Shown here: in pieces, positions 1,156-39,250 of the stretch
How positions within the stretch are numbered: position 1 is the stretch's first letter
How the letters are laid out: each line of letters begins with the position of its first letter
Source: the human T2T-CHM13v2.0 reference genome, Homo sapiens
NCBI RefSeq assembly: GCF_009914755.1
Contig: NC_060938.1
Direction: 5' to 3' (one strand)
DNA length: 64,000 nucleotides
Translations under genes and position numbers: made by a program
The notes under the pieces: generated by a model
Told to the model about the DNA's origin: nothing
The model's database searches: none
The model's input: the letters and a program-made list of their open reading frames with translations, nothing else

Positions 1156-1562
1156 CGCATCCCTCAGTGACCCCAAACCCATCTCCACTTACACTCAGGC
1201 ACTCCCAGGGCCTGACAGCTACTCCCCGTTATTGTCCTTCAGTTCGAAGCCCTGGCCAATCTACTAGCCCACATGACGCAGTTACCTGGCCATTTCTCCA
1301 CGGTTCCCGGGAGGGCCCCACACCCAGCCGCACAAGAGCCCCTCCTGCATTCCGTCCTCACACGCAGGCCTGTCCATCTACTTGCTACTGTCACACTCTT
1401 GCCAGCAGAAGAGGCCCCTGTAATGGCCGATATCACCACCCAGTCTATCCTCACCCCACAGCTGTGCAGCGGGAACCCCCTGCTGGCCCACGTGGCTGCC
1501 ACAGCCCATGCTGGCACGACGCTCCAGCAGGTCGGCGTCCCTGCGGGCCAAACTACCGGTGA
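3..1562 (+). CDS. 3' part of Ser/Pro-rich CTD-heptad-like repeat protein (cut by window start)
   Basis: Open frame from base 3 to TGA at 1560-1562; matches the C-terminal half of the 993-aa ORF in the next unit. Confidence 0.6.
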   Translation, partial: SYSPTTPTFQLESVPGTPESPPNSPISLSYSSVSTTSLSPTLRDSPVCPSYSPTMPTLQRESVPGTQESPPNSPISLNYSPVSLVSSPALRDSPVCPSYSTTTPTFQLESVPGTPESPPNSPVSLSYSPVSLMSSPPALRDSPVCPSYSPTMPRFQRESVPGTHVSPPNSAVSLSYSPVSLMSSPPDPWDSPVCPSYSPTTPRFQRESASHTPESDTDSQTSLNSSLVSLRSLPSSHRDSCVSFSYSQNFSRFQLESVPGTHDTPPNSRISLTYAPVSLMFSPPALRDSSVSLSYSPTISRFHLESASHTLESPANSRTLLQPSPISFTSSPPAFRDSPGSPSFSPAFPRFLPQSAPGTQDNPRHSQASPDYLPMTCTYTGMAPTHPSVTPNPSPLTLRHSQGLTATPRYCPSVRSPGQSTSPHDAVTWPFLHGSREGPTPSRTRAPPAFRPHTQACPSTCYCHTLASRRGPCNGRYHHPVYPHPTAVQREPPAGPRGCHSPCWHDAPAGRRPCGPNYR

Positions 1563-1771
1563 CATGTCTAGCGTGACCCTCCTTCCTGGCAGTGACACTG
1601 TTGATGTGAACCCCAATTTCACATCTGTCATTTGTAAATAGGACCATTTTCCCTTTTCGCTCTCCCTTCCATTCACAGGGCTTTTCATTCTCTCTGTTAC
1701 TGCCTCCGTTTCAGATATTTACTCACCTTTTTCTCTCTCACTATGTCTGCCGTGGGCTCCATGAGAGTGCG

Positions 1772-2105
1772 CCACATAAGATTCCCCCATTAAAAGTCAT
1801 GAATTGAGTGGCTTTTAGTATACCTGTGGTTGTGCACATTCAAATTTAATTCGCAATTCATTGTAGAACGTCTTATCACTCCCGGCCAGAGAAAAACCCT
1901 GTAGACATTAGTCACTCCTCATTCTGTCTCAAACCCTCTCCCTCACCCGCAGCCCTAGGTAGCAACTACCTAGTGCGATCAATCCCATATGCATAGATTA
2001 CCATATTGTGGACATTTCCTATAAGCGGAATTGCACAATAGGGGAGCTGTTATGACTGACATAACACGTAACACAATATTTTCAAGATTCGTCCACATTG
2101 TAGGC
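1772..2105 (-). mobile_element. Old LINE-1 (L1MB/L1M-like) 3' end fragment, antisense; present in every unit
   Basis: Resembles the reverse-strand L1M 3' UTR: 'aattgagtggcttttagtata...ttgtgcac...cattagtcactcctcattc...ggacatttcctataagcggaat...ttttcaagattcgtccacattgtag'. Subfamily and boundaries are approximate. Confidence 0.75.
1789..1794 (+). terminator. Candidate proximal poly(A) signal ATTAAA (next unit 8069-8074)
   Basis: ATTAAA lies ~230 bp after the ORF stop, followed ~30 bp later by GT-rich 'ctgtggttgtg'. Confidence 0.4.
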
Positions 2106-2171
2106 TTACCCACAGGGGGAAACCATTTTTTTGGGGGCTTTTAGTAACACCGGTGTTTTCTCCTTCGTTAC

Positions 2172-2275
2172 GTCCTTCTTTCCTTCCTTCCTTCCTTCCT
2201 TCCTTCCTGACTTCCTTCTTTCCTTCCCTCCTTCCTCCTATTTCTCTCTTACTCCTTCTGCCCTCTCTCTTTCCT
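2172..2275 (+). repeat. (CCTT)n / CT-rich polypyrimidine microsatellite, every unit
   Basis: tccttctttccttccttccttccttcc...; expanded by 8 bp in the copy at ~14735-14780. Confidence 0.9.
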
Positions 2276-2933
2276 ATGCCTTAGGTGCATCCCACATTCT
2301 GCGTTTTTTTGGGGAAATCCTCGACAGGTGCAGGAAAATTGTGTTATTGTAACTATTTACCGTTATCTCTCTTTCACGGCTCTCCATCAGTTGTGAACAT
2401 CTATTGGTTTATCCCAAGTCTCTAAGCATATTTTCATTAGGTAAACCTGTTTTTCCTTATACAGCTGTTTCTGGAGTATAGGGTCGCATACTCATAAACC
2501 CAGTGTAACTCAGAAACGCATCTAATATTCCAGTAAACCCATCATAACGTTGAAAAATCGTAAATCAAACCATCATAAGTCACGGTTTGTCCGTGGATAT
2601 GGGCCTCATCAATTCCATTGTATTCAGTAATGCTGTACACCATTAACAATGGCAGACTGATTGGGAGTGGATATTGATAGCATTATAAAAGTCAGTTATT
2701 AGAGGGATACTTCTTTAACCTGACTGAAGAACTGATCTAATGGCTTTAGTACAGTGCATGATTATGTGCGATGTTTTGAGACAGAGTAGTACATTTGTGA
2801 ATGAAATTTTATGGCTTTTTTTTTCACTTAGTAGGAACCATTGTGTGTGGAAAAGTGAGAAAATGGCTTTCTGCTGTAGGGTCTGGCATTCATTGTAGAT
2901 GTAAGCTTATTTTTCTGTGAGCAAATCTTATTC

Positions 2934-2969
2934 AATAAAATACTACTCTTTATACTAAAAAACAAAAAC
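2934..2969 (+). terminator. AATAAA followed by an A-rich tract (candidate distal poly(A) site or retrocopy tail)
   Basis: AATAAA at 2934-2939, then aaaaaacaaaaac starting at ~2957. Confidence 0.4.
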
Positions 2970-2979
2970 AGTGGTGATG

Positions 2980-3312
2980 TGTGGTCATTATCCTCAGCAA
3001 ACTTATCCAGGGAAAGAAAACCAAACGCCACAACTCACTTATAATGGGAGCTGAAAAATGAGATCCCATGGACACAGGAAGGGGAACAACACACACTGGG
3101 GCCTTCCGGGAGACAGAGCGTTAAGAAAAACAGCTACTGCATGCTGGGATTAATACCTAGGTGATGGGTTGACAGGTGCAGCAAACCACCATGGCACACG
3201 TTTACCTTAGTAACAAATCTGCACATCATGCACATATACCCCAGAACTTAGGAACGAAACGAAACAAAAGACAACGAAAAAGCAACAGCAAAACGCTAAA
3301 GGCAAAATAAAG
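2980..3312 (+). mobile_element. LINE-1 L1PA-like 3' end with decayed A tail; present in every unit
   Basis: Typical L1PA 3' UTR motifs 'cattatcctcagcaaact', 'ctcacttataa..gggagctgaa', 'taatacctaggtgatgggttgacaggtgcagcaaaccaccatggcacacgtttacct..gtaacaaa.ctgcacatc.tgcacat.tacccc.gaactta', followed by an A-rich tail. Confidence 0.9.
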
Positions 3313-3459
3313 TTTCAAACTGAGAAAGTGACAGACCAACGTCTGGTTCAAATCATGGTTCTCAACCCAGGTGCCATAAGGTCAGGATAAAGGATGTGAT
3401 TACATATTGTCAATAAGACATGCAGCAAATGACCAGAATGATTATTCTCAACATATGAG

Positions 3460-3925
3460 TGTCTTCTAATTCAATGGCGACGCTATCTACCGGGACATAG
3501 CATTAGATTCCAAAGGGCCGAGTCCCGCCAGACAGGCCTCCCACACTAATAACAATGGGAAGCCCTACGTTGCTTTACCTGTGCTTCTCAGCCACTGGCT
3601 ATAAATCAGGTTGCCACCACTCCCAGATTTAGTTGCATTCATTTGCTGGAAGAGCTCACAGCACGCAGGGAAACACATTTGCCGTTGTATTTTAGCGGAC
3701 ATTGCACAAAGTTCAGAAATAAATGTGGGGCCCGGCATGTGGGGAGGGGCGCACTACCTTCCAGGAAGTGCTATCCAGAAGCTCTCTGAACCCAGTCCTT
3801 TTGGGTTTTGATGGAGACCTCATTCTATAGGCATGATGGGTTAAACCATAGGCTATTGGTGATCAACTCCACCTGGGGCTCTCCACCCTCCCTGGAAATT
3901 GGGGTTGAGGCTTTGCCATCCTCAG
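3460..3925. mobile_element. MER21-like LTR fragment; present in every unit
   Basis: Recalled MER21-type motifs: 'ctggctataaatcagg', 'atttgctgga.gagctcacag', 'gaagctctctgaacccagtccttttgggtttt.atggag', 'attggtgatcaactc'. Orientation and boundaries are not determined. Confidence 0.65.
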
Positions 3926-3992
3926 TCTGACTAAAAGAATTTACCCAAACGGAATTTTAAAACCGATGAGCATAACTGGAATCTTAATTAGA

Positions 3993-4003
3993 TGATTGGA
4001 TTA
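3993..4003 (-). promoter_or_regulatory. DUX4-type double-homeodomain motif (TAATCCAATCA on the minus strand)
   Basis: TGATTGGATTA is a perfect match to TAAYYYAATCA, with an adjacent TAATTA. Also present at 10273, 16561, 22841, 29121, 35401, 41681, 47960, 54239 and 60518. Confidence 0.6.
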
Positions 4004-4169
4004 TCTGGAGCCACACCTTGATATTCCTAACCCGAGCACCCTCATCCAACGAATGCTCCACCCAACTGGCTCCCAAGTCTCTACGTGGTTCCAGAGCAAA
4101 AGGATGTTGATACAACGCATATCTCCACCTTTTCTTCAAAGTCTTTACGCTTACACGGAAAGACTTCTT

Positions 4170-4235
4170 CAACTGCCATGCATCAGGGTCAGGGGGAGGT
4201 CTTGTTACAACACAGATCTGCGGATCTCCGGGGTT
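4170..4235. mobile_element. Possible short MER5-like DNA transposon remnant
   Basis: 'tgcatcagggtcagggggaggtcttgttacaacacagat' resembles MER5A 'tgcatcagaatcacctggagggcttgttaaaacacagat'; short and diverged. Confidence 0.35.
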
Positions 4236-4369
4236 TGACTGTGGCAAGGATGCTGCTGGTGTCAAAACCACAACGTGGGAACCACAGAACCACTAGTGGG
4301 TTTTCAGTGTTTCAGTGCATACAATTCCTAATATATCTGGCTAAGAAAACTTGTAAGTTCTTAGATTGT

Positions 4370-4383
4370 CCCAAAGGTGGCGC
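4370..4383 (+). promoter_or_regulatory. Possible CTCF-like site
   Basis: CCCAAAGGTGGCGC matches 11 of 14 positions of CCACCAGGTGGCGC. Confidence 0.3.
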
Positions 4384-4489
4384 ATGAAATCAAAGCAGGA
4401 GAACAGTTTCCTTACGAGGTGTAGCCTGGGAAAGTTGGGGGTGACTGATGGAAAGGAGGAGTGAAGCTCCACCCTTTCCGCTGCTAGGC

Positions 4490-4625
4490 TGCGGCCGAGG
4501 CAATTTAAACCCACCCTGGCTGGCCTGTACTCAGATCTTCGCGGAGCGGATCAGCGGCCGGAGCGTTTGGCGGACTCTGCGTGGACTTGGAGCTCACAGA
4601 GTCTTGCGACTTGGAAGCGGATTCA
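4490..4625 (+). promoter_or_regulatory. Candidate Pol II core promoter: TATA-like ATTTAAA (4503-4509), Inr TCAGATC (4531-4537), CpG-rich leader
   Basis: The TATA-like box lies 30 bp upstream of the A in a YYANWYY Inr match. A local CpG cluster is present, and there is no ATG between 4533 and the ORF ATG at 4861. Recurs in every unit. Confidence 0.55.
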
Positions 4626-4658
4626 GAGGACAGGACAGAACACTTGGACAAGTGAATC

Positions 4659-4688
<30 letters not shown>
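4659..4688 (+). repeat. (TCTG)n microsatellite, every unit
   Basis: tctgtctgtctg... read directly. Confidence 0.95.
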
Positions 4689-4689
<1 letters not shown>

Positions 4690-4737
4690 CATTGGTTGGT
4701 TGATTTCCATTTTCTTAAGGGGCACATACCTCACACC

Positions 4738-4799
4738 GCACACACACAAACACACACACGCACACACACACACACACACGCACACACACGCACACACAC
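4738..4799 (+). repeat. Interrupted (CA)n microsatellite, every unit
   Basis: cacacacaaacacacacacgcacac... read directly. Confidence 0.95.
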
Positions 4800-4860
4800 T
4801 CCTTCCTTCTGCGAGTTAGAACATTAGTAGGGGCCCCTGGGAGCTGCAGGTTTCCTAAAC

Positions 4861-7842
4861 ATGTCTGCACCTAAGAACAGTAGGGTCTTGTCTGGCTCTT
4901 CTTATGAACGGTCCCCCAGCCCGGACTCCCCAAGGTCCATGCGAGCCTCACCCAGCTTCTCCCTCTCCCCTCTCAGAAACTCAGGCTTAAGGGGAAGCTC
5001 CTCACCAGGGATCGGGAGCTACCATTCACCATCCCCTAGGGCTTCACCACACTCACCTCTGTCATCACCAGAATCCCACAAGCTCCCATTTCCCTGTCCT
5101 CACCGTGATGGGCAATCAATAAAGCCATTGGGCTCTCCCGTGTCCTCCTCTGAGGAATCCTCAGAGTCCCCACGTTCATCAATAATATACCACATGTTCT
5201 TACTGCCATCACCCAGCAGCTCACCCCCAGCTCTCGGGGGGTCTCCTGTGTCTCCCAGCTACTCTCCAAACAACCCCAGATTTCAGCTGCGGTCAGCCCC
5301 CCACACCAAGGAATCACCTACAAACTCACGAGCCTCACGCTGCTCCACCCCTGTGTCTTTCATCTCTTCACCCCCAGGCCTCAGGGACCCTCCTGTGGCT
5401 CCCAGTTACTCTCCAGCCATCCCCAGGTTCCTGCGGGAGTCAGCCCCATACACCCAGGAGTCCCCCAGAGACTCACAGGTCTTGGGAGATTATGAGCGGT
5501 CCCTCAGCCCTGACTCCTCAAGATTCATGCCTGCCTCACCCAGCTTCTCCCTCTCCCCTCCCAGAAACTCAGACCCAAGGGGCAGCTCCTCACCAGGGAT
5601 GTGGAAGTCCTCTACATCATCCCGCAGGGCTTCACCACTCTCACATCCGTCATCAACAGAATTCCACAACTTTACGTTTCCCTTTCCTAACCAAGCAGGA
5701 CAGTCACTCATGTCATTGTGTTCTCCCGTGACCTCCTCTGGAGATTCTTCACAGTCACCTCATTCATCAATAATATACCATATGTTCTTACTGCCATCAT
5801 CCAGCAGCTCACCCCCAGCCACCCATGACTCTCCTGTCTGTCCCAGCTACTCTCCAACTACGCCCAGATTTCAGCGGGAGTCTCTACCCCACACCCCAGA
5901 AACACCTACAAACTCACAGACCTCAGTGAGATCCTCGCCAGTCTCTCTCACGTCTTCACCCCCAGCCCTTACGGACCCTCCAGTCTGTCCCAGCTACTCT
6001 CCAACCACGCCCACATTTCAGCGCGGGTCAGTTCCAGGAACCCAGGGATCACCACCAAGCCCACCGCTTTCACTGAGTTACTCCCCAGTCTCTAGCACGT
6101 CTTTATCTCCAACCCTCAGGGACTCGCCTGTCTGTCCCAGCTACTCTCCAAACACGCCCACACTTCAGCGGCAGTCCGTTGCAGGCACCCAGAAGTCACC
6201 ACCAAACTCACCAATTTCACTGCGTTACTCCCCAGTCTCTCTCATGTCTTCACCATCCCTCAGGGACTCTCCCGTCTGTCCCAGCTACTCTCCAACCACG
6301 CCCACATTTCAGCTGGAGTCAGTTCCAGGCACCCCGGAATCACCACCAAACTCACCAATTTCACTCAGTTACTCCTCAGTCTCTACCACGTCTTTATCTC
6401 CAACCCTCAGGGACTCTCCTGTGTGTCCCAGCTACTCTCCAACCATGCCCACACTTCAGCGGGAGTCAGTTCCAGGCACCCAGGAATCACCACCAAACTC
6501 ACCAATTTCACTCAATTACTCTCCAGTCTCTCTCGTGTCTTCACCAGCCCTCAGGGACTCTCCTGTCTGTCCCAGCTACTCTACAACCACGCCCACATTT
6601 CAGCTGGAGTCAGTTCCAGGCACCCCGGAGTCACCACCAAACTCACCAGTTTCACTCAGTTACTCCCCGGTCTCTCTCATGTCATCACCCCCAGCCCTCA
6701 GGGACTCTCCTGTGTGTCCCAGCTACTCTCCAACCATGCCCAGATTCCAGCGGGAGTCAGTTCCAGGCACCCATGTATCACCACCAAACTCAGCAGTTTC
6801 ACTGAGTTACTCCCCAGTCTCTCTCATGTCTTCACCCCCAGACCCCTGGGACTCTCCTGTCTGTCCCAGCTACTCTCCCACCACGCCCAGATTTCAGCGG
6901 GAGTCAGCCTCCCACACTCCGGAATCAGATACAGACTCACAGACTTCACTGAACTCCTCCCTGGTCTCTCTCAGGTCTTTGCCCTCATCCCACAGGGACT
7001 CTTGTGTCTCTTTCAGCTACTCTCAAAACTTCTCTAGATTCCAGCTGGAGTCAGTTCCAGGCACCCACGATACACCACCGAACTCACGAATTTCACTGAC
7101 TTACGCCCCAGTCTCCCTCATGTTCTCACCCCCAGCCCTCAGGGACTCTTCTGTCTCTCTCAGCTACTCTCCAACCATCTCCAGATTTCACCTGGAGTCA
7201 GCTTCCCACACCCTGGAATCACCTGCAAACTCACGGACCTTACTGCAACCATCCCCCATTTCTTTCACCTCTTCACCCCCTGCCTTCAGGGACTCTCCTG
7301 GGTCTCCCAGCTTCTCTCCAGCCTTCCCCAGATTTCTGCCACAGTCAGCCCCAGGCACCCAGGACAACCCTAGACACTCACAGGCCTCACCAGACTATCT
7401 CCCTATGACCTGTACCTATACAGGGATGGCTCCCACGCATCCCTCAGTGACCCCAAACCCATCTCCACTTACACTCAGGCACTCCCAGGGCCTGACAGCT
7501 ACTCCCCGTTATTGTCCTTCAGTTCGAAGCCCTGGCCAATCTACTAGCCCACATGACGCAGTTACCTGGCCATTTCTCCACGGTTCCCGGGAGGGCCCCA
7601 CACCCAGCCGCACAAGAGCCCCTCCTGCATTCCGTCCTCACACGCAGGCCTGTCCATCTACTTGCTACTGTCACACTCTTGCCAGCAGAAGAGGCCCCTG
7701 TAATGGCCGATATCACCACCCAGTCTATCCTCACCCCACAGCTGTGCAGCGGGAACCCCCTGCTGGCCCACGTGGCTGCCACAGCCCATGCTGGCACGAC
7801 GCTCCAGCAGGTCGGCGTCCCTGCGGGCCAAACTACCGGTGA
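4861..7842 (+). CDS. 993-aa Ser/Pro/Thr-rich protein built of Pol II CTD-like heptads (49-aa repeats), with a Cys/His-rich C-terminus; intact
   Basis: 2982-bp uninterrupted ORF; ATG has A at -3; monomer length differences preserve frame (147 or 144 bp). Confidence 0.7.
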   Translation: MSAPKNSRVLSGSSYERSPSPDSPRSMRASPSFSLSPLRNSGLRGSSSPGIGSYHSPSPRASPHSPLSSPESHKLPFPCPHRDGQSIKPLGSPVSSSEESSESPRSSIIYHMFLLPSPSSSPPALGGSPVSPSYSPNNPRFQLRSAPHTKESPTNSRASRCSTPVSFISSPPGLRDPPVAPSYSPAIPRFLRESAPYTQESPRDSQVLGDYERSLSPDSSRFMPASPSFSLSPPRNSDPRGSSSPGMWKSSTSSRRASPLSHPSSTEFHNFTFPFPNQAGQSLMSLCSPVTSSGDSSQSPHSSIIYHMFLLPSSSSSPPATHDSPVCPSYSPTTPRFQRESLPHTPETPTNSQTSVRSSPVSLTSSPPALTDPPVCPSYSPTTPTFQRGSVPGTQGSPPSPPLSLSYSPVSSTSLSPTLRDSPVCPSYSPNTPTLQRQSVAGTQKSPPNSPISLRYSPVSLMSSPSLRDSPVCPSYSPTTPTFQLESVPGTPESPPNSPISLSYSSVSTTSLSPTLRDSPVCPSYSPTMPTLQRESVPGTQESPPNSPISLNYSPVSLVSSPALRDSPVCPSYSTTTPTFQLESVPGTPESPPNSPVSLSYSPVSLMSSPPALRDSPVCPSYSPTMPRFQRESVPGTHVSPPNSAVSLSYSPVSLMSSPPDPWDSPVCPSYSPTTPRFQRESASHTPESDTDSQTSLNSSLVSLRSLPSSHRDSCVSFSYSQNFSRFQLESVPGTHDTPPNSRISLTYAPVSLMFSPPALRDSSVSLSYSPTISRFHLESASHTLESPANSRTLLQPSPISFTSSPPAFRDSPGSPSFSPAFPRFLPQSAPGTQDNPRHSQASPDYLPMTCTYTGMAPTHPSVTPNPSPLTLRHSQGLTATPRYCPSVRSPGQSTSPHDAVTWPFLHGSREGPTPSRTRAPPAFRPHTQACPSTCYCHTLASRRGPCNGRYHHPVYPHPTAVQREPPAGPRGCHSPCWHDAPAGRRPCGPNYR
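5237..7435 (+). repeat. ACRO1: 147-bp ACRO1-like monomers within the ORF: 2 monomers (5237, 5384) plus 11 tandem monomers (5825-~7435); same layout in every unit
   Basis: Landmark positions 5825, 5972, 6119, 6263, 6410, 6554, 6701, 6848, 6995, 7142, 7289 give spacings of 147, 147, 144, 147, 144, 147, 147, 147, 147, 147. Confidence 0.85.
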
Positions 7843-10800
7843 CATGTCTAGCGTGACCCTCCTTCCTGGCAGTGACACTGTTGATGTGAACCCCAATTTC
7901 ACATCTGTCATTTGTAAATAGGACCATTTTCCCTTTTCGCTCTCCCTTCCATTCACAGGGCTTTTCATTCTCTCTGTTACTGCCTCCGTTTCAGATATTT
8001 ACTCACCTTTTTCTCTCTCACTATGTCTGCCGTGGGCTCCATGAGAGTGCGCCACATAAGATTCCCCCATTAAAAGTCATGAATTGAGTGGCTTTTAGTA
8101 TACCTGTGGTTGTGCACATTCAAATTTAATTCGCAATTCATTGTAGAACGTCTTATCACTCCCGGCCAGAGAAAAACCCTGTAGACATTAGTCACTCCTC
8201 ATTCTGTCTCAAACCCTCTCCCTCACCCGCAGCCCTAGGTAGCAACTACCTAGTGCGATCAATCCCATATGCATAGATTACCATATTGTGGACATTTCCT
8301 ATAAGCGGAATTGCACAATAGGGGAGCTGTTATGACTGACATAACACGTAACACAATATTTTCAAGATTCGTCCACATTGTAGGCTTACCCACAGGGGGA
8401 AACCATTTTTTTGGGGGCTTTTAGTAACACCGGTGTTTTCTCCTTCGTTACGTCCTTCTTTCCTTCCTTCCTTCCTTCCTTCCTTCCTGACTTCCTTCTT
8501 TCCTTCCCTCCTTCCTCCTATTTCTCTCTTACTCCTTCTGCCCTCTCTCTTTCCTATGCCTTAGGTGCATCCCACATTCTGCGTTTTTTTGGGGAAATCC
8601 TCGACAGGTGCAGGAAAATTGTGTTATTGTAACTATTTACCGTTATCTCTCTTTCACGGCTCTCCATCAGTTGTGAACATCTATTGGTTTATCCCAAGTC
8701 TCTAAGCATATTTTCATTAGGTAAACCTGTTTTTCCTTATACAGCTGTTTCTGGAGTATAGGGTCGCATACTCATAAACCCAGTGTAACTCAGAAACGCA
8801 TCTAATATTCCAGTAAACCCATCATAACGTTGAAAAATCGTAAATCAAACCATCATAAGTCACGGTTTGTCCGTGGATATGGGCCTCATCAATTCCATTG
8901 TATTCAGTAATGCTGTACACCATTAACAATGGCAGACTGATTGGGAGTGGATATTGATAGCATTATAAAAGTCAGTTATTAGAGGGATACTTCTTTAACC
9001 TGACTGAAGAACTGATCTAATGGCTTTAGTACAGTGCATGATTATGTGCGATGTTTTGAGACAGAGTAGTACATTTGTGAATGAAATTTTATGGCTTTTT
9101 TTTTCACTTAGTAGGAACCATTGTGTGTGGAAAAGTGAGAAAATGGCTTTCTGCTGTAGGGTCTGGCATTCATTGTAGATGTAAGCTTATTTTTCTGTGA
9201 GCAAATCTTATTCAATAAAATACTACTCTTTATACTAAAAAACAAAAACAGTGGTGATGTGTGGTCATTATCCTCAGCAAACTTATCCAGGGAAAGAAAA
9301 CCAAACGCCACAACTCACTTATAATGGGAGCTGAAAAATGAGATCCCATGGACACAGGAAGGGGAACAACACACACTGGGGCCTTCCGGGAGACAGAGCG
9401 TTAAGAAAAACAGCTACTGCATGCTGGGATTAATACCTAGGTGATGGGTTGACAGGTGCAGCAAACCACCATGGCACACGTTTACCTTAGTAACAAATCT
9501 GCACATCATGCACATATACCCCAGAACTTAGGAACGAAACGAAACAAAAGACAACGAAAAAGCAACAGCAAAACGCTAAAGGCAAAATAAAGTTTCAAAC
9601 TGAGAAAGTGACAGACCAACGTCTGGTTCAAATCATGGTTCTCAACCCAGGTGCCATAAGGTCAGGATAAAGGATGTGATTACATATTGTCAATAAGACA
9701 TGCAGCAAATGACCAGAATGATTATTCTCAACATATGAGTGTCTTCTAATTCAATGGCGACGCTATCTACCGGGACATAGCATTAGATTCCAAAGGGCCG
9801 AGTCCCGCCAGACAGGCCTCCCACACTAATAACAATGGGAAGCCCTACGTTGCTTTACCTGTGCTTCTCAGCCACTGGCTATAAATCAGGTTGCCACCAC
9901 TCCCAGATTTAGTTGCATTCATTTGCTGGAAGAGCTCACAGCACGCAGGGAAACACATTTGCCGTTGTATTTTAGCGGACATTGCACAAAGTTCAGAAAT
10001 AAATGTGGGGCCCGGCATGTGGGGAGGGGCGCACTACCTTCCAGGAAGTGCTATCCAGAAGCTCTCTGAACCCAGTCCTTTTGGGTTTTGATGGAGACCT
10101 CATTCTATAGGCATGATGGGTTAAACCATAGGCTATTGGTGATCAACTCCACCTGGGGCTCTCCACCCTCCCTGGAAATTGGGGTTGAGGCTTTGCCATC
10201 CTCAGTCTGACTAAAAGAATTTACCCAAACGGAATTTTAAAACCGATGAGCATAACTGGAATCTTAATTAGATGATTGGATTATCTGGAGCCACACCTTG
10301 ATATTCCTAACCCGAGCACCCTCATCCAACGAATGCTCCACCCAACTGGCTCCCAAGTCTCTACGTGGTTCCAGAGCAAAAGGATGTTGATACAACGCAT
10401 ATCTCCACCTTTTCTTCAAAGTCTTTACGCTTACACGGAAAGACTTCTTCAACTGCCATGCATCAGGGTCAGGGGGAGGTCTTGTTACAACACAGATCTG
10501 CGGATCTCCGGGGTTTGACTGTGGCAAGGATGCTGCTGGTGTCAAAACCACAACGTGGGAACCACAGAACCACTAGTGGGTTTTCAGTGTTTCAGTGCAT
10601 ACAATTCCTAATATATCTGGCTAAGAAAACTTGTAAGTTCTTAGATTGTCCCAAAGGTGGCGCATGAAATCAAAGCAGGAGAACAGTTTCCTTACGAGGT
10701 GTAGCCTGGGAAAGTTGGGGGTGACTGATGGAAAGGAGGAGTGAAGCTCCACCCTTTCCGCTGCTAGGCTGCGGCCGAGGCAATTTAAACCCACCCTGGC

Positions 10801-11140: not shown

Positions 11141-14122
11141 ATGTCTGCACCTAAGAACAGTAGGGTCTTGTCTGGCTCTTCTTATGAACGGTCCCCCAGC
11201 CCGGACTCCCCAAGGTCCATGCGAGCCTCACCCAGCTTCTCCCTCTCCCCTCTCAGAAACTCAGGCTTAAGGGGAAGCTCCTCACCAGGGATCGGGAGCT
11301 ACCATTCACCATCCCCTAGGGCTTCACCACACTCACCTCTGTCATCACCAGAATCCCACAAGCTCCCATTTCCCTGTCCTCACCGTGATGGGCAATCAAT
11401 AAAGCCATTGGGCTCTCCCGTGTCCTCCTCTGAGGAATCCTCAGAGTCCCCACGTTCATCAATAATATACCACATGTTCTTACTGCCATCACCCAGCAGC
11501 TCACCCCCAGCTCTCGGGGGGTCTCCTGTGTCTCCCAGCTACTCTCCAAACAACCCCAGATTTCAGCTGCGGTCAGCCCCCCACACCAAGGAATCACCTA
11601 CAAACTCACGAGCCTCACTTTTCTCCACCCCTGTGTCTTTCATCTCTTCACCCCCAGGCCTCAGGGACCCTCCTGTGGCTCCCAGTTACTCTCCAGCCAT
11701 CCCCAGGTTCCTGCGCGAGTCAGCCCCATACACCCAGGAGTCCCCCAGAGACTCACAGGTCTTGGGAGATTATGAGCGGTCCCTCAGCCCTGACTCCTCA
11801 AGATTCATGCCTGCCTCACCCAGCTTCTCCCTCTCCCCTCCCAGAAACTCAGACCCAAGGGGCAGCTCCTCACCAGGGATGTGGAAGTTCTCTACGTCAT
11901 CCCGCAGGGCTTCACCACTCTCACATCCGTCATCAACAGAATTCCACAACTTTACGTTTCCCTTTCCTAACCAAGCAGGACAGTCACTCATGTCATTGTG
12001 TTCTCCCGTGACCTCCTCTGGAGATTCTTCACAGTCACCTCATTCATCAATAATATACCATATGTTCTTACTGCCATCATCCAGCAGCTCACCCCCTGCC
12101 ACCCATGACTCTCCTGTCTGTCCCAGCTACTCTCCAACTACGCCCAGATTTCAGCGGGAGTCTGTACCCCACACCCCAGAAACACCTACAAACTCACAGA
12201 CCTCAGTGAGATCCTCGCCAGTCTCTCTCACGTCTTCACCCCCAGCCCTTACGGACCCTCCAGTCTGTCCCAGCTACTCTCCAACCACGCCCACATTTCA
12301 GCGCGGGTCAGTTCCAGGAACCCAGGGATCACCACCAAGCCCACCGCTTTCACTGAGTTACTCCCCAGTCTCTAGCACGTCTTTATCTCCAACCCTCAGG
12401 GACTCGCCTGTCTGTCCCAGCTACTCTCCAAACACGCCCACACTTCAGCGGCAGTCCGTTGCAGGCACCCAGAAGTCACCACCAAACTCACCAATTTCAC
12501 TGCGTTACTCCCCAGTCTCTCTCATGTCTTCACCATCCCTCAGGGACTCTCCCGTCTGTCCCAGCTACTCTCCAACCACGCCCACATTTCAGCTGGAGTC
12601 AGTTCCAGGCACCCCGGAATCACCACCAAACTCACCAATTTCACTCAGTTACTCCCCAGTCTCTAGCACGTCTTTATCTCTAACCCTCAGGGACTCTCCT
12701 GTGTGTCCCAGCTACTCTCCAACCACGCCCACACTTCAGCGGGAGTCAGTTCCAGGCACCCAGGAATCACCACCAAACTCACCAATTTCACTCAATTACT
12801 CTCCAGTCTCTCTCGTGTCTTCACCAGCCCTCAGGGACTCTCCTGTCTGTCCCAGCTACTCTACAACCACGCCCACATTTCAGCTGGAGTCAGTTCGAGG
12901 CACCCCGGAGTCACCACCAAACTCACCAGTTTCACTCACTTACTCCTCGGTCTCTCTCATGTCTTCACCCCCAGCCCTCAGGGACTCTCCTGTGCGTCCC
13001 AGCTACTCTCCAACCATGCCCAGATTCCAGCGGGAGTCAGTTCCAGGCACCCATGTATCACCACCAAACTCAGCAGTTTCACTGAGTTACTCCCCAGTCT
13101 CTCTCATGTCTTCACCCCCAGACCCCTGGGACTCTCCTGTCTGTCCCAGCTACTCTCCCACCACGCCCAGATTTCAGCGGCAGTCAGCCTCCCACACTCC
13201 GGAATCAGATACAGACTCACAGACTTCACTGAACTCCTCCCTGGTCTCTCTCAGGTCTTTGCCCTCATCCCACAGGGACTCTTGTGTCTCTTTCAGCTAC
13301 TCTCAAAACTTCTCTAGATTCCAGCTGGAGTCAGTTCCAGGCACCCACGATACACCACCGAACTCACGAATTTCACTGACTTACGCCCCAGTCTCCCTCA
13401 TGTTCTCACCCCCAGCCCTCAGGGACTCTTCTGTCTCTCTCAGCTACTCTCCAACCATCTCCAGATTTCACCTGGAGTCAGCTTCCCACACCCTGGAATC
13501 ACCTGCAAACTCACGGACCTTACTGCAACCATCCCCCATTTCTTTCACCTCTTCACCCCCTGCCTTCAGGGACTCTCCTGGGTCTCCCAGCTTCTCTCCA
13601 GCCTTCCCCAGATTTCTGCCACAGTCAGCCCCAGGCACCCAGGACAACCCTAGACACTCACAGGCCTCACCAGACTATCTCCCTATGACCTGTACCTATA
13701 CAGGGATGGCTCCCACGCATCCCTCAGTGACCCCAAACCCATCTCCACTTACACTCAGGCACTCCCAGGGCCTGACAGCTACTCCCCGTTATTGTCCTTC
13801 AGTTCGAAGCCCTGGCCAATCTACTAGCCCACATGACGCAGTTACCTGGCCATTTCTCCACGGTTCCCGGGAGGGCCCCACACCCAGCCGCACAAGAGCC
13901 CCTCCTGCATTCCGTCCTCACACGCAGGCCTGTCCATCTACTTGCTACTGTCACACTCTTGCCAGCAGAAGAGGCCCCTGTAATGGCCGATATCACCACC
14001 CAGTCTATCCTCACCCCACAGCTGTGCAGCGGGAACCCCCTGCTGGCCCACGTGGCTGCCACAGCCCATGCTGGCACGACGCTCCAGCAGGTCGGCGTCC
14101 CTGCGGGCCAAACTACCGGTGA
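11141..14122 (+). CDS. 993-aa CTD-heptad-like repeat protein, intact copy
   Basis: Full ORF with several substitutions relative to the 4861 copy (e.g. RC160-161LF). Confidence 0.7.
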   Translation: MSAPKNSRVLSGSSYERSPSPDSPRSMRASPSFSLSPLRNSGLRGSSSPGIGSYHSPSPRASPHSPLSSPESHKLPFPCPHRDGQSIKPLGSPVSSSEESSESPRSSIIYHMFLLPSPSSSPPALGGSPVSPSYSPNNPRFQLRSAPHTKESPTNSRASLFSTPVSFISSPPGLRDPPVAPSYSPAIPRFLRESAPYTQESPRDSQVLGDYERSLSPDSSRFMPASPSFSLSPPRNSDPRGSSSPGMWKFSTSSRRASPLSHPSSTEFHNFTFPFPNQAGQSLMSLCSPVTSSGDSSQSPHSSIIYHMFLLPSSSSSPPATHDSPVCPSYSPTTPRFQRESVPHTPETPTNSQTSVRSSPVSLTSSPPALTDPPVCPSYSPTTPTFQRGSVPGTQGSPPSPPLSLSYSPVSSTSLSPTLRDSPVCPSYSPNTPTLQRQSVAGTQKSPPNSPISLRYSPVSLMSSPSLRDSPVCPSYSPTTPTFQLESVPGTPESPPNSPISLSYSPVSSTSLSLTLRDSPVCPSYSPTTPTLQRESVPGTQESPPNSPISLNYSPVSLVSSPALRDSPVCPSYSTTTPTFQLESVRGTPESPPNSPVSLTYSSVSLMSSPPALRDSPVRPSYSPTMPRFQRESVPGTHVSPPNSAVSLSYSPVSLMSSPPDPWDSPVCPSYSPTTPRFQRQSASHTPESDTDSQTSLNSSLVSLRSLPSSHRDSCVSFSYSQNFSRFQLESVPGTHDTPPNSRISLTYAPVSLMFSPPALRDSSVSLSYSPTISRFHLESASHTLESPANSRTLLQPSPISFTSSPPAFRDSPGSPSFSPAFPRFLPQSAPGTQDNPRHSQASPDYLPMTCTYTGMAPTHPSVTPNPSPLTLRHSQGLTATPRYCPSVRSPGQSTSPHDAVTWPFLHGSREGPTPSRTRAPPAFRPHTQACPSTCYCHTLASRRGPCNGRYHHPVYPHPTAVQREPPAGPRGCHSPCWHDAPAGRRPCGPNYR

Positions 14123-17428: not shown

Positions 17429-20410
17429 ATGTCTGCACCTAAGAACAGTAGGGTCTTGTCTGGCTCTTCTTATGAACGGTCCCCCAGCCCGGACTCCCCA
17501 AGGTCCATGCGAGCCTCACCCAGCTTCTCCCTCTCCCCTCTCAGAAACTCAGGCTTAAGGGGAAGCTCCTCACCAGGGATCGGGAGCTACCATTCACCAT
17601 CCCCTAGGGCTTCACCACACTCACCTCTGTCATCACCAGAATCCCACAAGCTCCCATTTCCCTGTCCTCACCGTGATGGGCAATCAATAAAGCCATTGGG
17701 CTCTCCCGTGTCCTCCTCTGAGGAATCCTAAGAGTCCCCACGTTCATCAATAATATACCACATGTTCTTACTGCCATCACCCAGCAGCTCACCCCCAGCT
17801 CTCGGGGGGTCTCCTGTGTCTCCCAGCTACTCTCCAAACAACCCCAGATTTCAGCTGCGGTCAGCCCCCCACACCAAGGAATCACCTACAAACTCACGAG
17901 CCTCACTTTTCTCCACCCCTGTGTCTTTCATCTCTTCACCCCCAGGCCTCAGGGACCCTCCTGTGGCTCCCAGTTACTCTCCAGCCATCCCCAGGTTCCT
18001 GCGCGAGTCAGCCCCATACACCCAGGAGTCCCCCAGAGACTCACAGGTCTTGGGAGATTATGAGCGGTCCCTCAGCCCTGACTCCTCAAGATTCATGCCT
18101 GCCTCACCCAGCTTCTCCCTCTCCCCTCCCAGAAACTCAGACCCAAGGGGCAGCTCCTCACCAGGGATGTGGAAGTCCTCTACATCATCCCGCAGGGCTT
18201 CACCACTCTCACATCCGTCATCAACAGAATTCCACAACTTTACGTTTCCCTTTCCTAACCAAGCAGGACAGTCACTCATGTCATTGTGTTCTCCCGTGAC
18301 CTCCTCTGGAGATTCTTCACAGTCACCTCATTCATCAATAATATACCATATGTTCTTACTGCCATCATCCAGCAGCTCACCCCCAGCCACCCATGACTCT
18401 CCTGTCTGTCCCAGCTACTCTCCAACTACGCCCAGATTTCAGCGGGAGTCTCTACCCCACACCCCAGAAACACCTACAAACTCACAGACCTCAGTGAGAT
18501 CCTCGCCAGTCTCTCTCACGTCTTCACCCCCAGCCCTTACGGACCCTCCAGTCTGTCCCAGCTACTCTCCAACCACGCCCACATTTCAGCGCGGGTCAGT
18601 TCCAGGAACCCAGGGATCACCACCAAGCCCACCGCTTTCACTGAGTTACTCCCCAGTCTCTAGCACGTCTTTATCTCCAACCCTCAGGGACTCGCCTGTC
18701 TGTCCCAGCTACTCTCCAAACACGCCCACACTTCAGCGGCAGTCCGTTGCAGGCACCCAGAAGTCACCACCAAACTCACCAATTTCACTGCGTTACTCCC
18801 CAGTCTCTCTCATGTCTTCACCATCCCTCAGGGACTCTCCCGTCTGTCCCAGCTACTCTCCAACCACGCCCACATTTCAGCTGGAGTCAGTTCCAGGCAC
18901 CCCGGAATCACCACCAAACTCACCAATTTCACTCAGTTACTCCTCAGTCTCTACCACGTCTTTATCTCCAACCCTCAGGGACTCTCCTGTGTGTCCCAGC
19001 TACTCTCCAACCATGCCCACACTTCAGCGGGAGTCAGTTCCAGGCACCCAGGAATCACCACCAAACTCACCAATTTCACTCAATTACTCTCCAGTCTCTC
19101 TCGTGTCTTCACCAGCCCTCAGGGACTCTCCTGTCTGTCCCAGCTACTCTACAACCACGCCCACATTTCAGCTGGAGTCAGTTCCAGGCACCCCGGAGTC
19201 ACCACCAAACTCACCAGTTTCACTCAGTTACTCCCCGGTCTCTCTCATGTCATCACCCCCAGCCCTCAGGGACTCTCCTGTGTGTCCCAGCTACTCTCCA
19301 ACCATGCCCAGATTCCAGCGGGAGTCAGTTCCAGGCACCCATGTATCACCACCAAACTCAGCAGTTTCACTGAGTTACTCCCCAGTCTCTCTCATGTCTT
19401 CACCCCCAGACCCCTGGGACTCTCCTGTCTGTCCCAGCTACTCTCCCACCACGCCCAGATTTCAGCGGGAGTCAGCCTCCCACACTCCGGAATCAGATAC
19501 AGACTCACAGACTTCACTGAACTCCTCCCTGGTCTCTCTCAGGTCTTTGCCCTCATCCCACAGGGACTCTTGTGTCTCTTTCAGCTACTCTCAAAACTTC
19601 TCTAGATTCCAGCTGGAGTCAGTTCCAGGCACCCACGATACACCACCGAACTCACGAATTTCACTGACTTACGCCCCAGTCTCCCTCATGTTCTCACCCC
19701 CAGCCCTCAGGGACTCTTCTGTCTCTCTCAGCTACTCTCCAACCATCTCCAGATTTCACCTGGAGTCAGCTTCCCACACCCTGGAATCACCTGCAAACTC
19801 ACGGACCTTACTGCAACCATCCCCCATTTCTTTCACCTCTTCACCCCCTGCCTTCAGGGACTCTCCTGGGTCTCCCAGCTTCTCTCCAGCCTTCCCCAGA
19901 TTTCTGCCACAGTCAGCCCCAGGCACCCAGGACAACCCTAGACACTCACAGGCCTCACCAGACTATCTCCCTATGACCTGTACCTATACAGGGATGGCTC
20001 CCACGCATCCCTCAGTGACCCCAAACCCATCTCCACTTACACTCAGGCACTCCCAGGGCCTGACAGCTACTCCCCGTTATTGTCCTTCAGTTCGAAGCCC
20101 TGGCCAATCTACTAGCCCACATGACGCAGTTACCTGGCCATTTCTCCACGGTTCCCGGGAGGGCCCCACACCCAGCCGCACAAGAGCCCCTCCTGCATTC
20201 CGTCCTCACACGCAGGCCTGTCCATCTACTTGCTACTGTCACACTCTTGCCAGCAGAAGAGGCCCCTGTAATGGCCGATATCACCACCCAGTCTATCCTC
20301 ACCCCACAGCTGTGCAGCGGGAACCCCCTGCTGGCCCACGTGGCTGCCACAGCCCATGCTGGCACGACGCTCCAGCAGGTCGGCGTCCCTGCGGGCCAAA
20401 CTACCGGTGA
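17429..20410 (+). pseudogene. Copy with nonsense mutation S101* (TAA 17729-17731); 882-aa ORF remains from the ATG at 17762
   Basis: TCA>TAA relative to the other units; the rest of the frame is intact. Confidence 0.65.
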
Positions 20411-36268: not shown

Positions 36269-39250
36269 ATGTCTGCACCTAAGAACAGTAGGGTCTTGTC
36301 TGGCTCTTCTTATGAACGGTCCCCCAGCCCGGACTCCCCAAGGTCCATGCGAGCCTCACCCAGCTTCTCCCTCTCCCCTCTCAGAAACTCAGGCTTAAGG
36401 GGAAGCTCCTCACCAGGGATCGGGAGCTACCATTCACCATCCCCTAGGGCTTCACCACACTCACCTCTGTCATCACCAGAATCCCACAAGCTCCCATTTC
36501 CCTGTCCTCACCGTGATGGGCAATCAATAAAGCCATTGGGCTCTCCCGTGTCCTCCTCTGAGGAATCCTCAGAGTCCCCACGTTCATCAATAATATACCA
36601 CATGTTCTTACTGCCATCACCCAGCAGCTCACCCCCAGCTCTCGGGGGGTCTCCTGTGTCTCCCAGCTACTCTCCAAACAACCCCAGATTTCAGCTGCGG
36701 TCAGCCCCCCACACCAAGGAATCACCTACAAACTCACGAGCCTCACTTTTCTCCACCCCTGTGTCTTTCATCTCTTCACCCCCAGGCCTCAGGGACCCTC
36801 CTGTGGCTCCCAGTTACTCTCCAGCCATCCCCAGGTTCCTGCGCGAGTCAGCCCCATACACCCAGGAGTCCCCCAGAGACTCACAGGTCTTGGGAGATTA
36901 TGAGCGGTCCCTCAGCCCTGACTCCTCAAGATTCATGCCTGCCTCACCCAGCTTCTCCCTCTCCCCTCCCAGAAACTCAGACCCAAGGGGCAGCTCCTCA
37001 CCAGGGATGTGGAAGTCCTCTACGTCATCCCGCAGGGCTTCACCACTCTCACATCCGTCATCAACAGAATTCCACAACTTTACGTTTCCCTTTCCTAACC
37101 AAGCAGGACAGTCACTCATGTCATTGTGTTCTCCCGTGACCTCCTCTGGAGATTCTTCACAGTCACCTCATTCATCAATAATATACCATATGTTCTTACT
37201 GCCATCATCCAGCAGCTCACCCCCAGCCACCCATGACTCTCCTGTCTGTCCCAGCTACTCTCCAACTACGCCCAGATTTCAGCGGGAGTCTCTACCCCAC
37301 ACCCCAGAAACACCTACAAACTCACAGACCTCAGTGAGATCCTTGCCAGTCTCTCTCACGTCTTCACCCCCAGCCCTTACGGACCCTCCAGTCTGTCCCA
37401 GCTACTCTCCAACCACGCCCACATTTCAGCGCGGGTCAGTTCCAGGAACCCAGGGATCACCACCAAGCCCACCGCTTTCACTGAGTTACTCCCCAGTCTC
37501 TAGCACGTCTTTATCTCCAACCCTCAGGGACTCGCCTGTCTGTCCCAGCTACTCTCCAAACACGCCCACACTTCAGCGGCAGTCCGTTGCAGGCACCCAG
37601 AAGTCACCACCAAACTCACCAATTTCACTGCGTTACTCCCCAGTCTCTCTCATGTCTTCACCATCCCTCAGGGACTCTCCCGTCTGTCCCAGCTACTCTC
37701 CAACCACGCCCACATTTCAGCTGGAGTCAGTTCCAGGCACCCCGGAATCACCACCAAACTCACCAATTTCACTCAGTTACTCCTCAGTCTCTACCACGTC
37801 TTTATCTCCAACCCTAAGGGACTCTCCTGTGTGTCCCAGCTACTCTCCAACCATGCCCACACTTCAGCTGGAGTGAGTTCCAGGCACCCAGGAATCACCA
37901 CCAAACTCACCAATTTCACTCAATTACTCTCCAGTCTCTCTCGTGTCTTCACCAGCCCTCAGGGACTCTCCTGTCTGTCCCAGCTACTCTACAACCACGC
38001 CCACATTTCAGCTGGAGTCAGTTCGAGGCATCCCGGAGTCACCACCAAACTCACCAGTTTCACTCAGTTACTCCCCGGTCTCTCTCATGTCATCACCCCC
38101 AGCCCTCAGGGACTCTCCTGTGTGTCCCAGCTACTCTCCAACCATGCCCAGATTCCAGCGGGAGTCAGTTCCAGGCACCCATGTATCACCACCAAACTCA
38201 GCAGTTTCACTGAGTTACTCCCCAGTCTCTCTCATGTCTTCACCCCCAGACCCCTGGGACTCTCCTGTCTGTCCCAGCTACTCTCCCACCACGCCCAGAT
38301 TTCAGCGGGAGTCAGCCTCCCACACTCCGGAATCAGATACAGACTCACAGACTTCACTGAACTCCTCCCTGGTCTCTCTCAGGTCTTTGCCCTCATCCCA
38401 CAGGGACTCTTGTGTCTCTTTCAGCTACTCTCAAAACTTCTCTAGATTCCAGCTGGAGTCAGTTCCAGGCACCCACGATACACCACCGAACTCACGAATT
38501 TCACTGACTTACGCCCCAGTCTCCCTCATGTTCTCACCCCCAGCCCTCAGGGACTCTTCTGTCTCTCTCAGCTACTCTCCAACCATCTCCAGATTTCACC
38601 TGGAGTCAGCTTCCCACACCCTGGAATCACCTGCAAACTCACGGACCTTACTGCAACCATCCCCCATTTCTTTCACCTCTTCACCCCCTGCCTTCAGGGA
38701 CTCTCCTGGGTCTCCCAGCTTCTCTCCAGCCTTCCCCAGATTTCTGCCACAGTCAGCCCCAGGCACCCAGGACAACCCTAGACACTCACAGGCCTCACCA
38801 GACTATCTCCCTATGACCTGTACCTATACAGGGATGGCTCCCACGCATCCCTCAGTGACCCCAAACCCATCTCCACTTACACTCAGGCACTCCCAGGGCC
38901 TGACAGCTACTCCCCGTTATTGTCCTTCAGTTCGAAGCCCTGGCCAATCTACTAGCCCACATGACGCAGTTACCTGGCCATTTCTCCACGGTTCCCGGGA
39001 GGGCCCCACACCCAGCCGCACAAGAGCCCCTCCTGCATTCCGTCCTCACACGCAGGCCTGTCCATCTACTTGCTACTGTCACACTCTTGCCAGCAGAAGA
39101 GGCCCCTGTAATGGCCGATATCACCACCCAGTCTATCCTCACCCCACAGCTGTGCAGCGGGAACCCCCTGCTGGCCCACGTGGCTGCCACAGCCCATGCT
39201 GGCACGACGCTCCAGCAGGTCGGCGTCCCTGCGGGCCAAACTACCGGTGA
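36269..39250 (+). pseudogene. Copy with nonsense mutation S536* (TGA 37874-37876); truncated 535-aa product
   Basis: TCA>TGA relative to the other units, with additional private substitutions nearby. Confidence 0.7.

What the first reader, a model, noticed from the sequence alone, without database searches (positions are those of the whole stretch)
3984..4003. Perfect DUX4 motif upstream of the promoter in all 10 units
Seen: TGATTGGATTA (reverse complement TAATCCAATCA) with an abutting TAATTA, ~530 bp upstream of the predicted TSS and invariant across units. Known: DUX4 binds TAAYYYAATCA and activates cleavage-stage multicopy genes and repeats (ZSCAN4, PRAMEF, TRIM43, HSATII, MaLR/ERVL). Inference: the array could be a DUX4-driven zygotic-genome-activation (and FSHD) gene cluster. 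Invariance across units is not independent evidence, because the units are homogenised.
Basis: partly seen in the sequence, partly recalled or inferred. Interest (0 to 1): 0.75.

Follow-up and report, generated by a model that had tools for sequence, protein, structure and literature searches.

The report
Hidden DUX4-linked gene in ACRO satellite
Each 6.3-kb unit of the human 'ACRO' repeat on the short arm of chromosome 14 carries one DUX4 binding motif upstream of an unannotated 993-codon reading frame with predicted relatives in marmoset and rabbit, so this supposed satellite is likely a cluster of gene copies that DUX4 likely switches on in the early embryo.

Summary
The motif is real: TAATCCAATCA, once per 6.28-kb unit, 10 of 10 units. 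Its invariance means nothing (91% of 11-mers are invariant), and the nearby TAATTA is 2 bp away and is not a DUX4 site. The array is the known ACRO composite. That DUX4 induces ACRO1 RNA and that ACRO1 peaks at the 4-cell stage is already published. Two things were not found in print. (1) The probable cis site: ACRO1 itself is not DUX4-bound (ChIP 1.1x) yet is induced 15.8x, and DUX4 peaks lie in the unmasked part of the paralogous 4p11 array (suggestive, not significant). (2) Each unit looks like a gene: a 993-aa Ser/Pro-rich ORF 868 bp downstream, intact in 7 of 9 complete units, with predicted homologues in marmoset (full length), colobus and rabbit, and a shared Cys/His C-terminal motif. 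The frame is kept far beyond neutral expectation, although residues drift near-neutrally. ACRO1 would thus be the coding repeat of an old mammalian gene. TSS, transcript strand, translation and need for the motif are untested.

The parts
3993..4003 (-). DUX4 consensus site TAATCCAATCA ('CC' flavour); also contains the K50-homeodomain core TAATCC and a CCAAT. Copies at 10273, 16561, 22841, 29121, 35401, 41681, 47960, 54239, 60518
   Evidence: all four flavours bind and activate in vitro
3985..3990 (.). TAATTA palindrome, 2 bp from the DUX4 site; reported not to bind DUX4
4003..5217 (.). Segment used as the non-RepeatMasked ('unique') FISH probe of the 4p11 ACRO array, from the MER21 edge to an ACRO block; both primers match all 10 units. 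The motif sits at its MER21-side end; the exact MER21B boundary was not determined
   Evidence: composite content ACRO1/L1PA10/MER21B/L1MB8
4504..4535 (+). Predicted core promoter: TATA-like TTTAAA (4504) and Inr-like TCAGAT (4530); untested
   Evidence: inference
4652..4819 (+). Predicted 5'-UTR intron (donor CAA|GTGAAT; acceptor after a 14/18 pyrimidine tract; contains (TCTG)n and (CA)n); no ATG in 4530-4860; untested
   Evidence: inference
4861..7842 (+). 993-aa Ser/Pro-rich ORF (23% S, 18% P, 81 SP, 15 YSP), A at -3. Intact also at 11141-14122, 23709-26690, 29989-32970, 42548-45529, 48827-51808, 55106-58087; 61384 onward is cut by the window end
   Evidence: homologues
4903..6078 (+). Approximate span of the old internal duplication of a 196-codon module carrying I-I-Y-H-M-F (two copies in human and marmoset, one in P0013 and P0028)
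5809..7364 (+). ACRO1 147-bp array (10.6 copies) = in-frame 48/49-aa repeats inside the ORF; the only indels between units are 3 nt
7651..7674 (+). Conserved C-terminal Cys/His motif CPSTCYCH (aa 931-938)
8069..8074 (+). Candidate poly(A) signal ATTAAA 226 nt after the stop, with a GU-rich stretch downstream; AATAAA alternatives at 9214, 9586, 9998; untested
17429..17731 (+). Unit 3 ORF, broken by a premature stop at codon 101
36269..37876 (+). Unit 6 ORF, broken by a premature stop at codon 536

Best explanation
Each 6.28-kb ACRO unit carries one DUX4 consensus site 868 bp upstream of a 993-codon reading frame and is likely one copy of an old mammalian protein-coding gene, whose predicted promoter DUX4 likely switches on at the cleavage stage by binding that site. 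Shown here or in print: the motif; the ORF; its predicted homologues; retention of the frame; DUX4 induction of ACRO1 RNA without binding to ACRO1 itself; the 4-cell peak. Inferred: that DUX4 binds this site in the acrocentric arrays; that transcription starts near 4530 on the + strand, splices a short 5'-UTR intron and ends near 8090; that the mRNA is translated. The array is hypomethylated in the male germ line, so a single weak site multiplied over many tandem copies would give a large summed burst. The product is predicted to be disordered, with dozens of S/T-P sites. Most likely it works as a proline-directed-kinase phospho-scaffold with a short conserved Cys/His C-terminal interaction module (inference; no functional data). 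The ACRO1 'satellite' arose by in-frame expansion of one 49-codon segment of this gene in primates.
For: Motif: one perfect site per unit, P about 0.015 per unit; the CC flavour binds and activates. Young 2013 Table S2: ACRO1 has 0 peaks, ChIP read enrichment 1.1x and RNA activation 15.8x, which points to a site outside ACRO1 or an indirect effect. Young Table S1: three DUX4 peaks, all labelled 'Unique', fall inside the 4p11 ACRO array for any hg18-to-hg19 offset allowed by flanking satellites; two hold one motif each, 12,434 bp apart (2 x 6,217). Timing and epigenetics. ORF: 7 of 9 complete units intact. Marmoset P0002 shares start and end; 348 of 482 aligned non-repeat residues are identical with 2 single-codon gaps. 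Neutral simulations at assumed divergence 0.12-0.22 were stop-free in 1 of 800 runs and predict 14-25 indels. The 11 internal 147-bp units (tree length 1.27) have no in-frame stop; simulations gave this in 18-37 of 2000 runs, and the other two frames have stops in 5 and 2 of 11 units. Named homologues: Callithrix, Piliocolobus, Oryctolagus. Compact single-repeat homologues P0013 and P0028 have the same start, IIYHMF module and CPSTCYCH end.
Against: No TSS, strand, Ribo-seq or peptide data were seen, and RefSeq annotates no gene here (hub note). There is one non-optimal site per unit, and single sites are weak. Only about 1.2% of 63,795 DUX4 peaks start a transcript. RNA at the three 4p11 peaks was 'not expressed' or not significant (log2FC 3.21 and 1.72, FDR 0.967). 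Peak number and spacing are not significant alone (P 0.14 and 0.24), the third peak has 0 motifs, and I could not show that the peaks lie on the homologous site. Sense ACRO1 RNA blocks Pol II elongation in reporters, and no stable ACRO1 RNA was found in HeLa. Residues evolve near-neutrally: omega 0.85 between repeat units, 0.68 (bootstrap 0.46-0.95) for the N-terminal duplicate, 5 synonymous vs 15 non-synonymous codon differences among copies, and 72% human-marmoset identity equals the neutral value. Homologues are automated predictions whose DNA I did not see; the marmoset one runs about 70 aa in another frame. Many unnamed hits are near-identical to human and probably contamination (one is labelled Plasmodium). 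Motif conservation across species could not be tested.
Confidence: 0.5

Rival explanations
1. The gene is real and embryo-expressed, but DUX4 acts indirectly. K50 homeodomain factors (LEUTX, TPRX1/2, DPRX, OTX2) may bind the TAATCC within the same 11-mer, NF-Y may bind its CCAAT, or general opening of hypomethylated short-arm chromatin may drive transcription.
For: The 11-mer contains TAATCC and CCAAT. TAATCC is the core bound by the ZGA K50 factors. Single DUX4 sites are weak. ACRO1 is hypomethylated in sperm and in FSHD-model cells.
Against: DUX4 peaks with one motif each are called in the unmasked part of the 4p11 array even with uniquely mapped reads. The site is a full 11/11 DUX4 match, not just a half-site.
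Confidence: 0.22
2. DUX4 drives the unit, but the functional product is a non-coding RNA (nuclear or nucleolar, Pol II-binding), or there is none. The ORF is a recently relaxed relic kept open by array homogenisation.
For: Near-neutral residue change; 2 of 9 copies carry stops; ACRO1 RNA binds Pol II and attenuates elongation; gene conversion can keep ORFs open without constraint on every copy; ACRO tracks rDNA-bearing arms.
Against: The frame has stayed free of stops and frameshifts along the human and marmoset lineages and through 11 diverged repeat units. Homogenisation copies whatever allele is present and does not remove stops over tens of millions of years.
Confidence: 0.18
3. The motif is a chance 11-mer amplified with the unit. 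ACRO1 induction is read-through or a side effect and has nothing to do with this site.
For: P about 0.015 per unit, before allowing for the many motifs a reader might have noticed; invariance is uninformative; peak statistics are weak.
Against: The element is independently known to be DUX4-induced and 4-cell-specific, and DUX4 peaks lie in the paralogous array.
Confidence: 0.1

Closest known systems
ACRO composite / ACRE (ACRO1 + L1PA10 + MER21B + L1MB8; Warburton 2008, Boots 2020, Hoyt 2021 preprint, great-ape acrocentric preprint)
   Same: Same element: about 6-kb unit, 147-bp ACRO1 block, distal acrocentric short arm; published 4p11 primers match all 10 units.
   Different: These sources treat it as a gene-less megasatellite or primate-specific composite. 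Here the unit holds a 993-aa ORF with predicted homologues as far as rabbit, and a DUX4 site.
DUX4-induced ACRO1 and HSATII satellite RNA (Hendrickson 2017, seen only through citing papers; Young 2013 tables)
   Same: DUX4 induction and cleavage-stage enrichment.
   Different: HSATII is bound directly (1.9x ChIP, 857x RNA). ACRO1 is not bound (1.1x, 15.8x RNA). No site or gene model for ACRO was found in the papers read.
DUX4-activated multicopy cleavage-stage genes (ZSCAN4, PRAMEF, TRIM43/49/51, RFPL4A) and gene-bearing macrosatellites (D4Z4/DUX4, RS447/USP17, CT47)
   Same: One ORF per tandem unit, an upstream DUX4 site, fast protein evolution, a mix of intact and broken copies. Gene lists come and in part from recall.
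   Different: No Pfam domain or solved relative; only one DUX4 site, where ZSCAN4 has three candidates; the coding repeat is itself catalogued as a satellite; it sits on the acrocentric short arms.
Pol II CTD (RPB1 heptads)
   Same: Y-S-P-T/S-P-rich repeats; Boots 2020 found 23/49 identity for the translated ACRO1 consensus; automated names call the homologues 'RPB1(-like)'.
   Different: The repeat is 48/49 aa, not 7; no RPB1 domain. The repeat traces to one segment of a compact gene (P0013, P0028), so derivation from POLR2A mRNA, as Boots proposed, is not needed.

Membership tests
ACRO composite (ACRE) | About 6-kb tandem unit with a 147-bp ACRO1 block, on an acrocentric short arm | tested here: met
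   hub note chr14:62,001-126,000
ACRO composite (ACRE) | Sequence identity to the described 4p11 unit | tested here: met
   both published primers match 10 of 10 units exactly
ACRO composite (ACRE) | L1PA10, MER21B and L1MB8 fragments at defined places | not testable with these tools
   no Dfam/RepeatMasker library; content taken
Direct DUX4 target | Consensus TAAT[T/C][T/C]AATCA site near the promoter | tested here: met
   (the promoter itself is predicted)
Direct DUX4 target | DUX4 occupancy at that site | tested here: inconclusive
   three 'Unique' peaks in the 4p11 array, two with one motif at 2-unit spacing; P 0.14-0.24; not mapped to the site
Direct DUX4 target | Induction by DUX4 and cleavage-stage expression | tested here: met
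   at family level only, from published data: 15.8x, 4-cell peak; peak-level RNA not significant
Direct DUX4 target | Motif needed for induction | not testable with these tools
   needs a reporter or editing assay
Direct DUX4 target | Motif conserved above its flanks across species | tested here: inconclusive
   no outgroup DNA found
Protein-coding gene family in a macrosatellite | One long intact ORF per unit | tested here: met
   7 of 9 complete units
Protein-coding gene family in a macrosatellite | Reading frame conserved across species beyond neutral expectation | tested here: met
   divergence and indel rates assumed, homologues are predictions
Protein-coding gene family in a macrosatellite | Purifying selection on residues (dN/dS well below 1) | tested here: inconclusive
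   omega 0.85 and 0.68 (0.46-0.95) on internal duplicates; no orthologous DNA
Protein-coding gene family in a macrosatellite | Full-length mRNA and translation shown | not testable with these tools
   no RNA, Ribo-seq or MS data; NET-CAGE table too large to read
RPB1/POLR2A family | RNA polymerase Rpb1 domains | tested here: not met
   0 Pfam families; 0 PDB matches

The most novel reading that the evidence does not exclude
ACRO is a large unannotated human protein-coding gene family: many tandem copies on the rDNA-bearing short arms, fired directly by DUX4 at the 4-cell stage. It would make a disordered CTD-like phospho-scaffold that competes for or concentrates CTD kinases, phosphatases and readers, or helps rebuild nucleoli, during genome activation. 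It would be mis-expressed in FSHD muscle and DUX4-positive tumours, and the 'ACRO1 satellite' would simply be its coding repeat.
Probability: 0.25. Interest if true: 0.92.

Novelty: new variant of a known kind. Interest (0 to 1): 0.76.

Why it matters
ACRO is described as the repeat most tightly tied to acrocentric arms in great apes, with early-embryo expression and little analysis so far. Reading each unit as a DUX4-responsive gene would explain its 4-cell expression, its 147-bp (3n) period and its CTD-like translation in one step. It would add a high-copy gene family to supposedly gene-poor short arms, with dosage that varies between people and would change in Robertsonian carriers (inference). 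It would also give FSHD and DUX4-cancer work a new candidate marker. Most of this can be tested at once on public ChIP, Iso-Seq, Ribo-seq and MS data.

Tried and rejected
Invariance across units as evidence: rejected, since 91% of 11-mers are invariant. TAATTA as a second DUX4 site: rejected. No second near-consensus site in the unit: none with 1 mismatch, 12 with 2 mismatches. RPB1 membership: rejected. Structured RNA: 0 Rfam hits in 1500-8000. Fold: the AlphaFold2 model of the C-terminal 175 aa had pLDDT 51, pTM 0.11 and no secondary structure, so no fold search was run; the Atlas model of the marmoset protein had pLDDT 0.40 and its structure hits were all TM below 0.5. Outgroup DNA for motif conservation: nothing in genome contigs, viral contigs or plasmids; no own genome is held. 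Peak spacing and density as proof of binding: not significant. Near-identical unnamed hits (P0001, P0003, P0004, P0030-32, P0034-35) were not counted as independent conservation. Weak profile hits P0018-P0020, P0024 and P0027 were not used (P0019, P0020, P0024, P0027 not inspected). Hendrickson 2017 and the journal version of Hoyt 2022 are not held. Vuoristo 2022 NET-CAGE and STRT tables could not be read and bioRxiv supplements are closed; they may hold TSS data or a gene model for ACRO.

Full report
1. Observation. TGATTGGATTA lies at 3993-4003 and once in each of ten 6.28-kb units. It is the only site with fewer than two mismatches to TAAYYYAATCA in a unit. TAATTA is at 3985-3990, 2 bp away. 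The units are 99.5-100% identical and 91% of 11-mers are invariant, so ten copies count as one; one shuffled unit holds such a site in 15 of 1000 trials. The TSS is a prediction from a TATA-like and an Inr-like element at 4504-4535.

2. What the array is. Each unit holds about 10.6 copies of a 147-bp repeat. This is the ACRO composite or ACRE: ACRO1, L1PA10, MER21B and L1MB8, on the distal acrocentric short arms (passages or named sections read). Primers published for the 4p11 array, designed in unmasked sequence between MER21 and ACRO, match all ten units at 4003-4022 and 5198-5217. The motif therefore sits at the MER21-side edge of the unique segment; I could not fix the MER21B boundary.

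3. What is already known about DUX4 and ACRO. Three papers (passages read) state that DUX4 raises ACRO1 and HSATII transcripts, two of them naming Hendrickson 2017 in the passage; I could not open that paper. ACRO1 peaks at the 4-cell stage (passages), is hypomethylated in spermatogonia and sperm (passages) and loses most methylation in FSHD-model cells. In Young 2013 Table S2, ACRO1 has 0 peaks in 61 copies, ChIP read enrichment 1.1x and RNA activation 15.8x; MER21B as a family shows 3.1x peak enrichment. ACRO1 is thus induced but not bound, which fits an upstream site or an indirect route.

4. Is the site bound? Young Table S1 (hg19; the held copy has 49,232 of 63,795 rows; I searched six number prefixes and read part 134) lists three peaks at chr4:49,296,560, 49,309,006 and 49,316,359, all labelled Unique. 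Flanking satellite arrays bound the hg18-to-hg19 offset to 293.6-314.4 kb, which places all three inside Warburton's ACRO array. Two have one motif each, 12,434 bp apart (2 x 6,217), as expected for the same site two units apart; the third has no called motif. Against: chance spacing P 0.24, chance number P 0.14; RNA at these peaks was absent or not significant; only about 1.2% of DUX4 peaks start transcripts. In vitro all four consensus flavours bind, the CT flavour is best, TAATTA is not bound, and single sites are weak (passages). The 11-mer also holds TAATCC, the core for the ZGA factors OTX2, LEUTX, TPRX1/2 and DPRX. Direct binding is likely, not shown.

5. Is it a gene cluster? A 993-aa ORF begins 866-868 bp after the motif and runs through the ACRO1 block. 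It is intact in 7 of 9 complete units, broken by a stop in 2, and cut by the window end in the tenth. It has no Pfam or PDB match and is predicted to be disordered. Searches found named predicted homologues in Callithrix (832 aa), Piliocolobus (291 aa, partial) and Oryctolagus (575 aa), all auto-named RPB1 or RPB1-like. The marmoset protein shares the start, both IIYHMF modules and the C-terminus: 226 of 322 and 122 of 160 identical residues, with one gap each. It runs about 70 aa in another frame before returning. The rabbit protein shares the repeat and the non-repetitive ACPS-CYCH...CNG..HHP motif. A profile search returned 22 proteins, of which I inspected 17 plus the rabbit record. Among them is an unnamed compact form, P0013, about 45% identical, with one module, one repeat and the same ends, and with similarity extending into the DNA upstream of the human ATG; P0028 is a similar compact form close to human. 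The Atlas has a 70-member cluster with a 993-aa 'putative extensin-like' representative (score 0.89, a lead only), so automated predictions like this ORF probably exist in databases. Many other hits are near-identical to human and probably contamination.

6. Selection. The 11 internal units (tree length 1.27 substitutions per site) have no in-frame stop and only 3-nt gaps. Neutral simulations were stop-free in 18-37 of 2000 runs; the other frames have stops in 5 and 2 of 11 units. For the human-marmoset non-repeat segments, at assumed divergences of 0.12-0.22, 1 of 800 runs stayed stop-free and 14-25 indels were expected (rates assumed from general knowledge). Residues are barely constrained: omega 0.85 between units, 0.68 (0.46-0.95) for the 196-codon duplicate, 5 synonymous to 15 non-synonymous differences among copies against 27% synonymous sites, and 72% identity equals the neutral value. 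Selection has kept the frame, the composition and two short motifs, as in fast-evolving disordered proteins. Current constraint in humans is unproven.

7. Mechanism. Best reading (0.5): a burst of DUX4 binds the single site in many poorly methylated copies and fires a compact gene (predicted TSS about 4530, 5'-UTR intron 4652-4819, ORF 4861-7842, poly(A) signal 8069). The product would be a disordered S/T-P-rich protein that likely acts as a kinase-modified scaffold with a Cys/His C-terminal module. Self-attenuation by ACRO1 RNA would keep it silent elsewhere, but it also argues against abundant full-length mRNA. Rivals: indirect or K50-factor control (0.22), non-coding product with a relic ORF (0.18), chance motif (0.10).

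8. Novelty. Searches for ACRO1 with DUX4, ACRO1 alone (32 of 38 listed), ACRO composite terms, MER21B with DUX4, ORF or protein-coding terms, extensin-like and CTD terms (mostly listings) gave no paper that maps a DUX4 site in ACRO or treats the unit as a protein-coding gene. Warburton lists it among gene-less arrays. Boots translated the repeat but reported no non-primate homologue (parts 1-3 of 5 read). Two recent preprints on acrocentrics and duplicated genes have no such passage in their main text under my terms. Subscription papers and closed or oversized supplements were not seen. Verdict: motif confirmed; DUX4 induction known; the cis site and the conserved gene are the new parts. Interest 0.76.

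Noticed in passing
window 17429-17731 and 36269-37876: Two of nine complete ORF copies carry independent premature stops (codons 101 and 536): birth-and-death inside a homogenised array.
   Followed up: yes
window 5339-5342 and matching places in other units: A three-base difference block (codons 160-161) and other ORF variants are shared by non-adjacent units in patchy patterns, which suggests gene conversion between units.
   Followed up: partly
P0002 aa 610-678 vs window 7133-7363: The marmoset protein runs about 70 aa in the +1 frame and returns to the conserved C-terminus: a compensated frameshift or a gene-model artefact.
   Followed up: partly
P0012 aa 237-283 vs window 4504-4644: An unnamed predicted protein joins the gene's C-terminus to sequence 62% identical to the predicted promoter/exon 1 region, which hints at a tandem arrangement and conservation of that region elsewhere.
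   Followed up: no
hg19 chr4:49,513,543-49,514,591: A strong DUX4 peak (height 499, one motif, Unique, log2FC 3.71, not significant) lies about 200 kb from the 4p11 ACRO array; whether it is another ACRO copy was not determined.
   Followed up: no
P0031: A 'Plasmodium ovale wallikeri' protein is mostly this human ORF fused to other sequence, most likely host contamination in that assembly.
   Followed up: no
window 7553-7921 (+, other frame): A 122-aa overlapping ORF runs past the main stop; several database predictions switch into this frame at the C-terminus (P0010, P0011, P0012). No Pfam match.
   Followed up: partly
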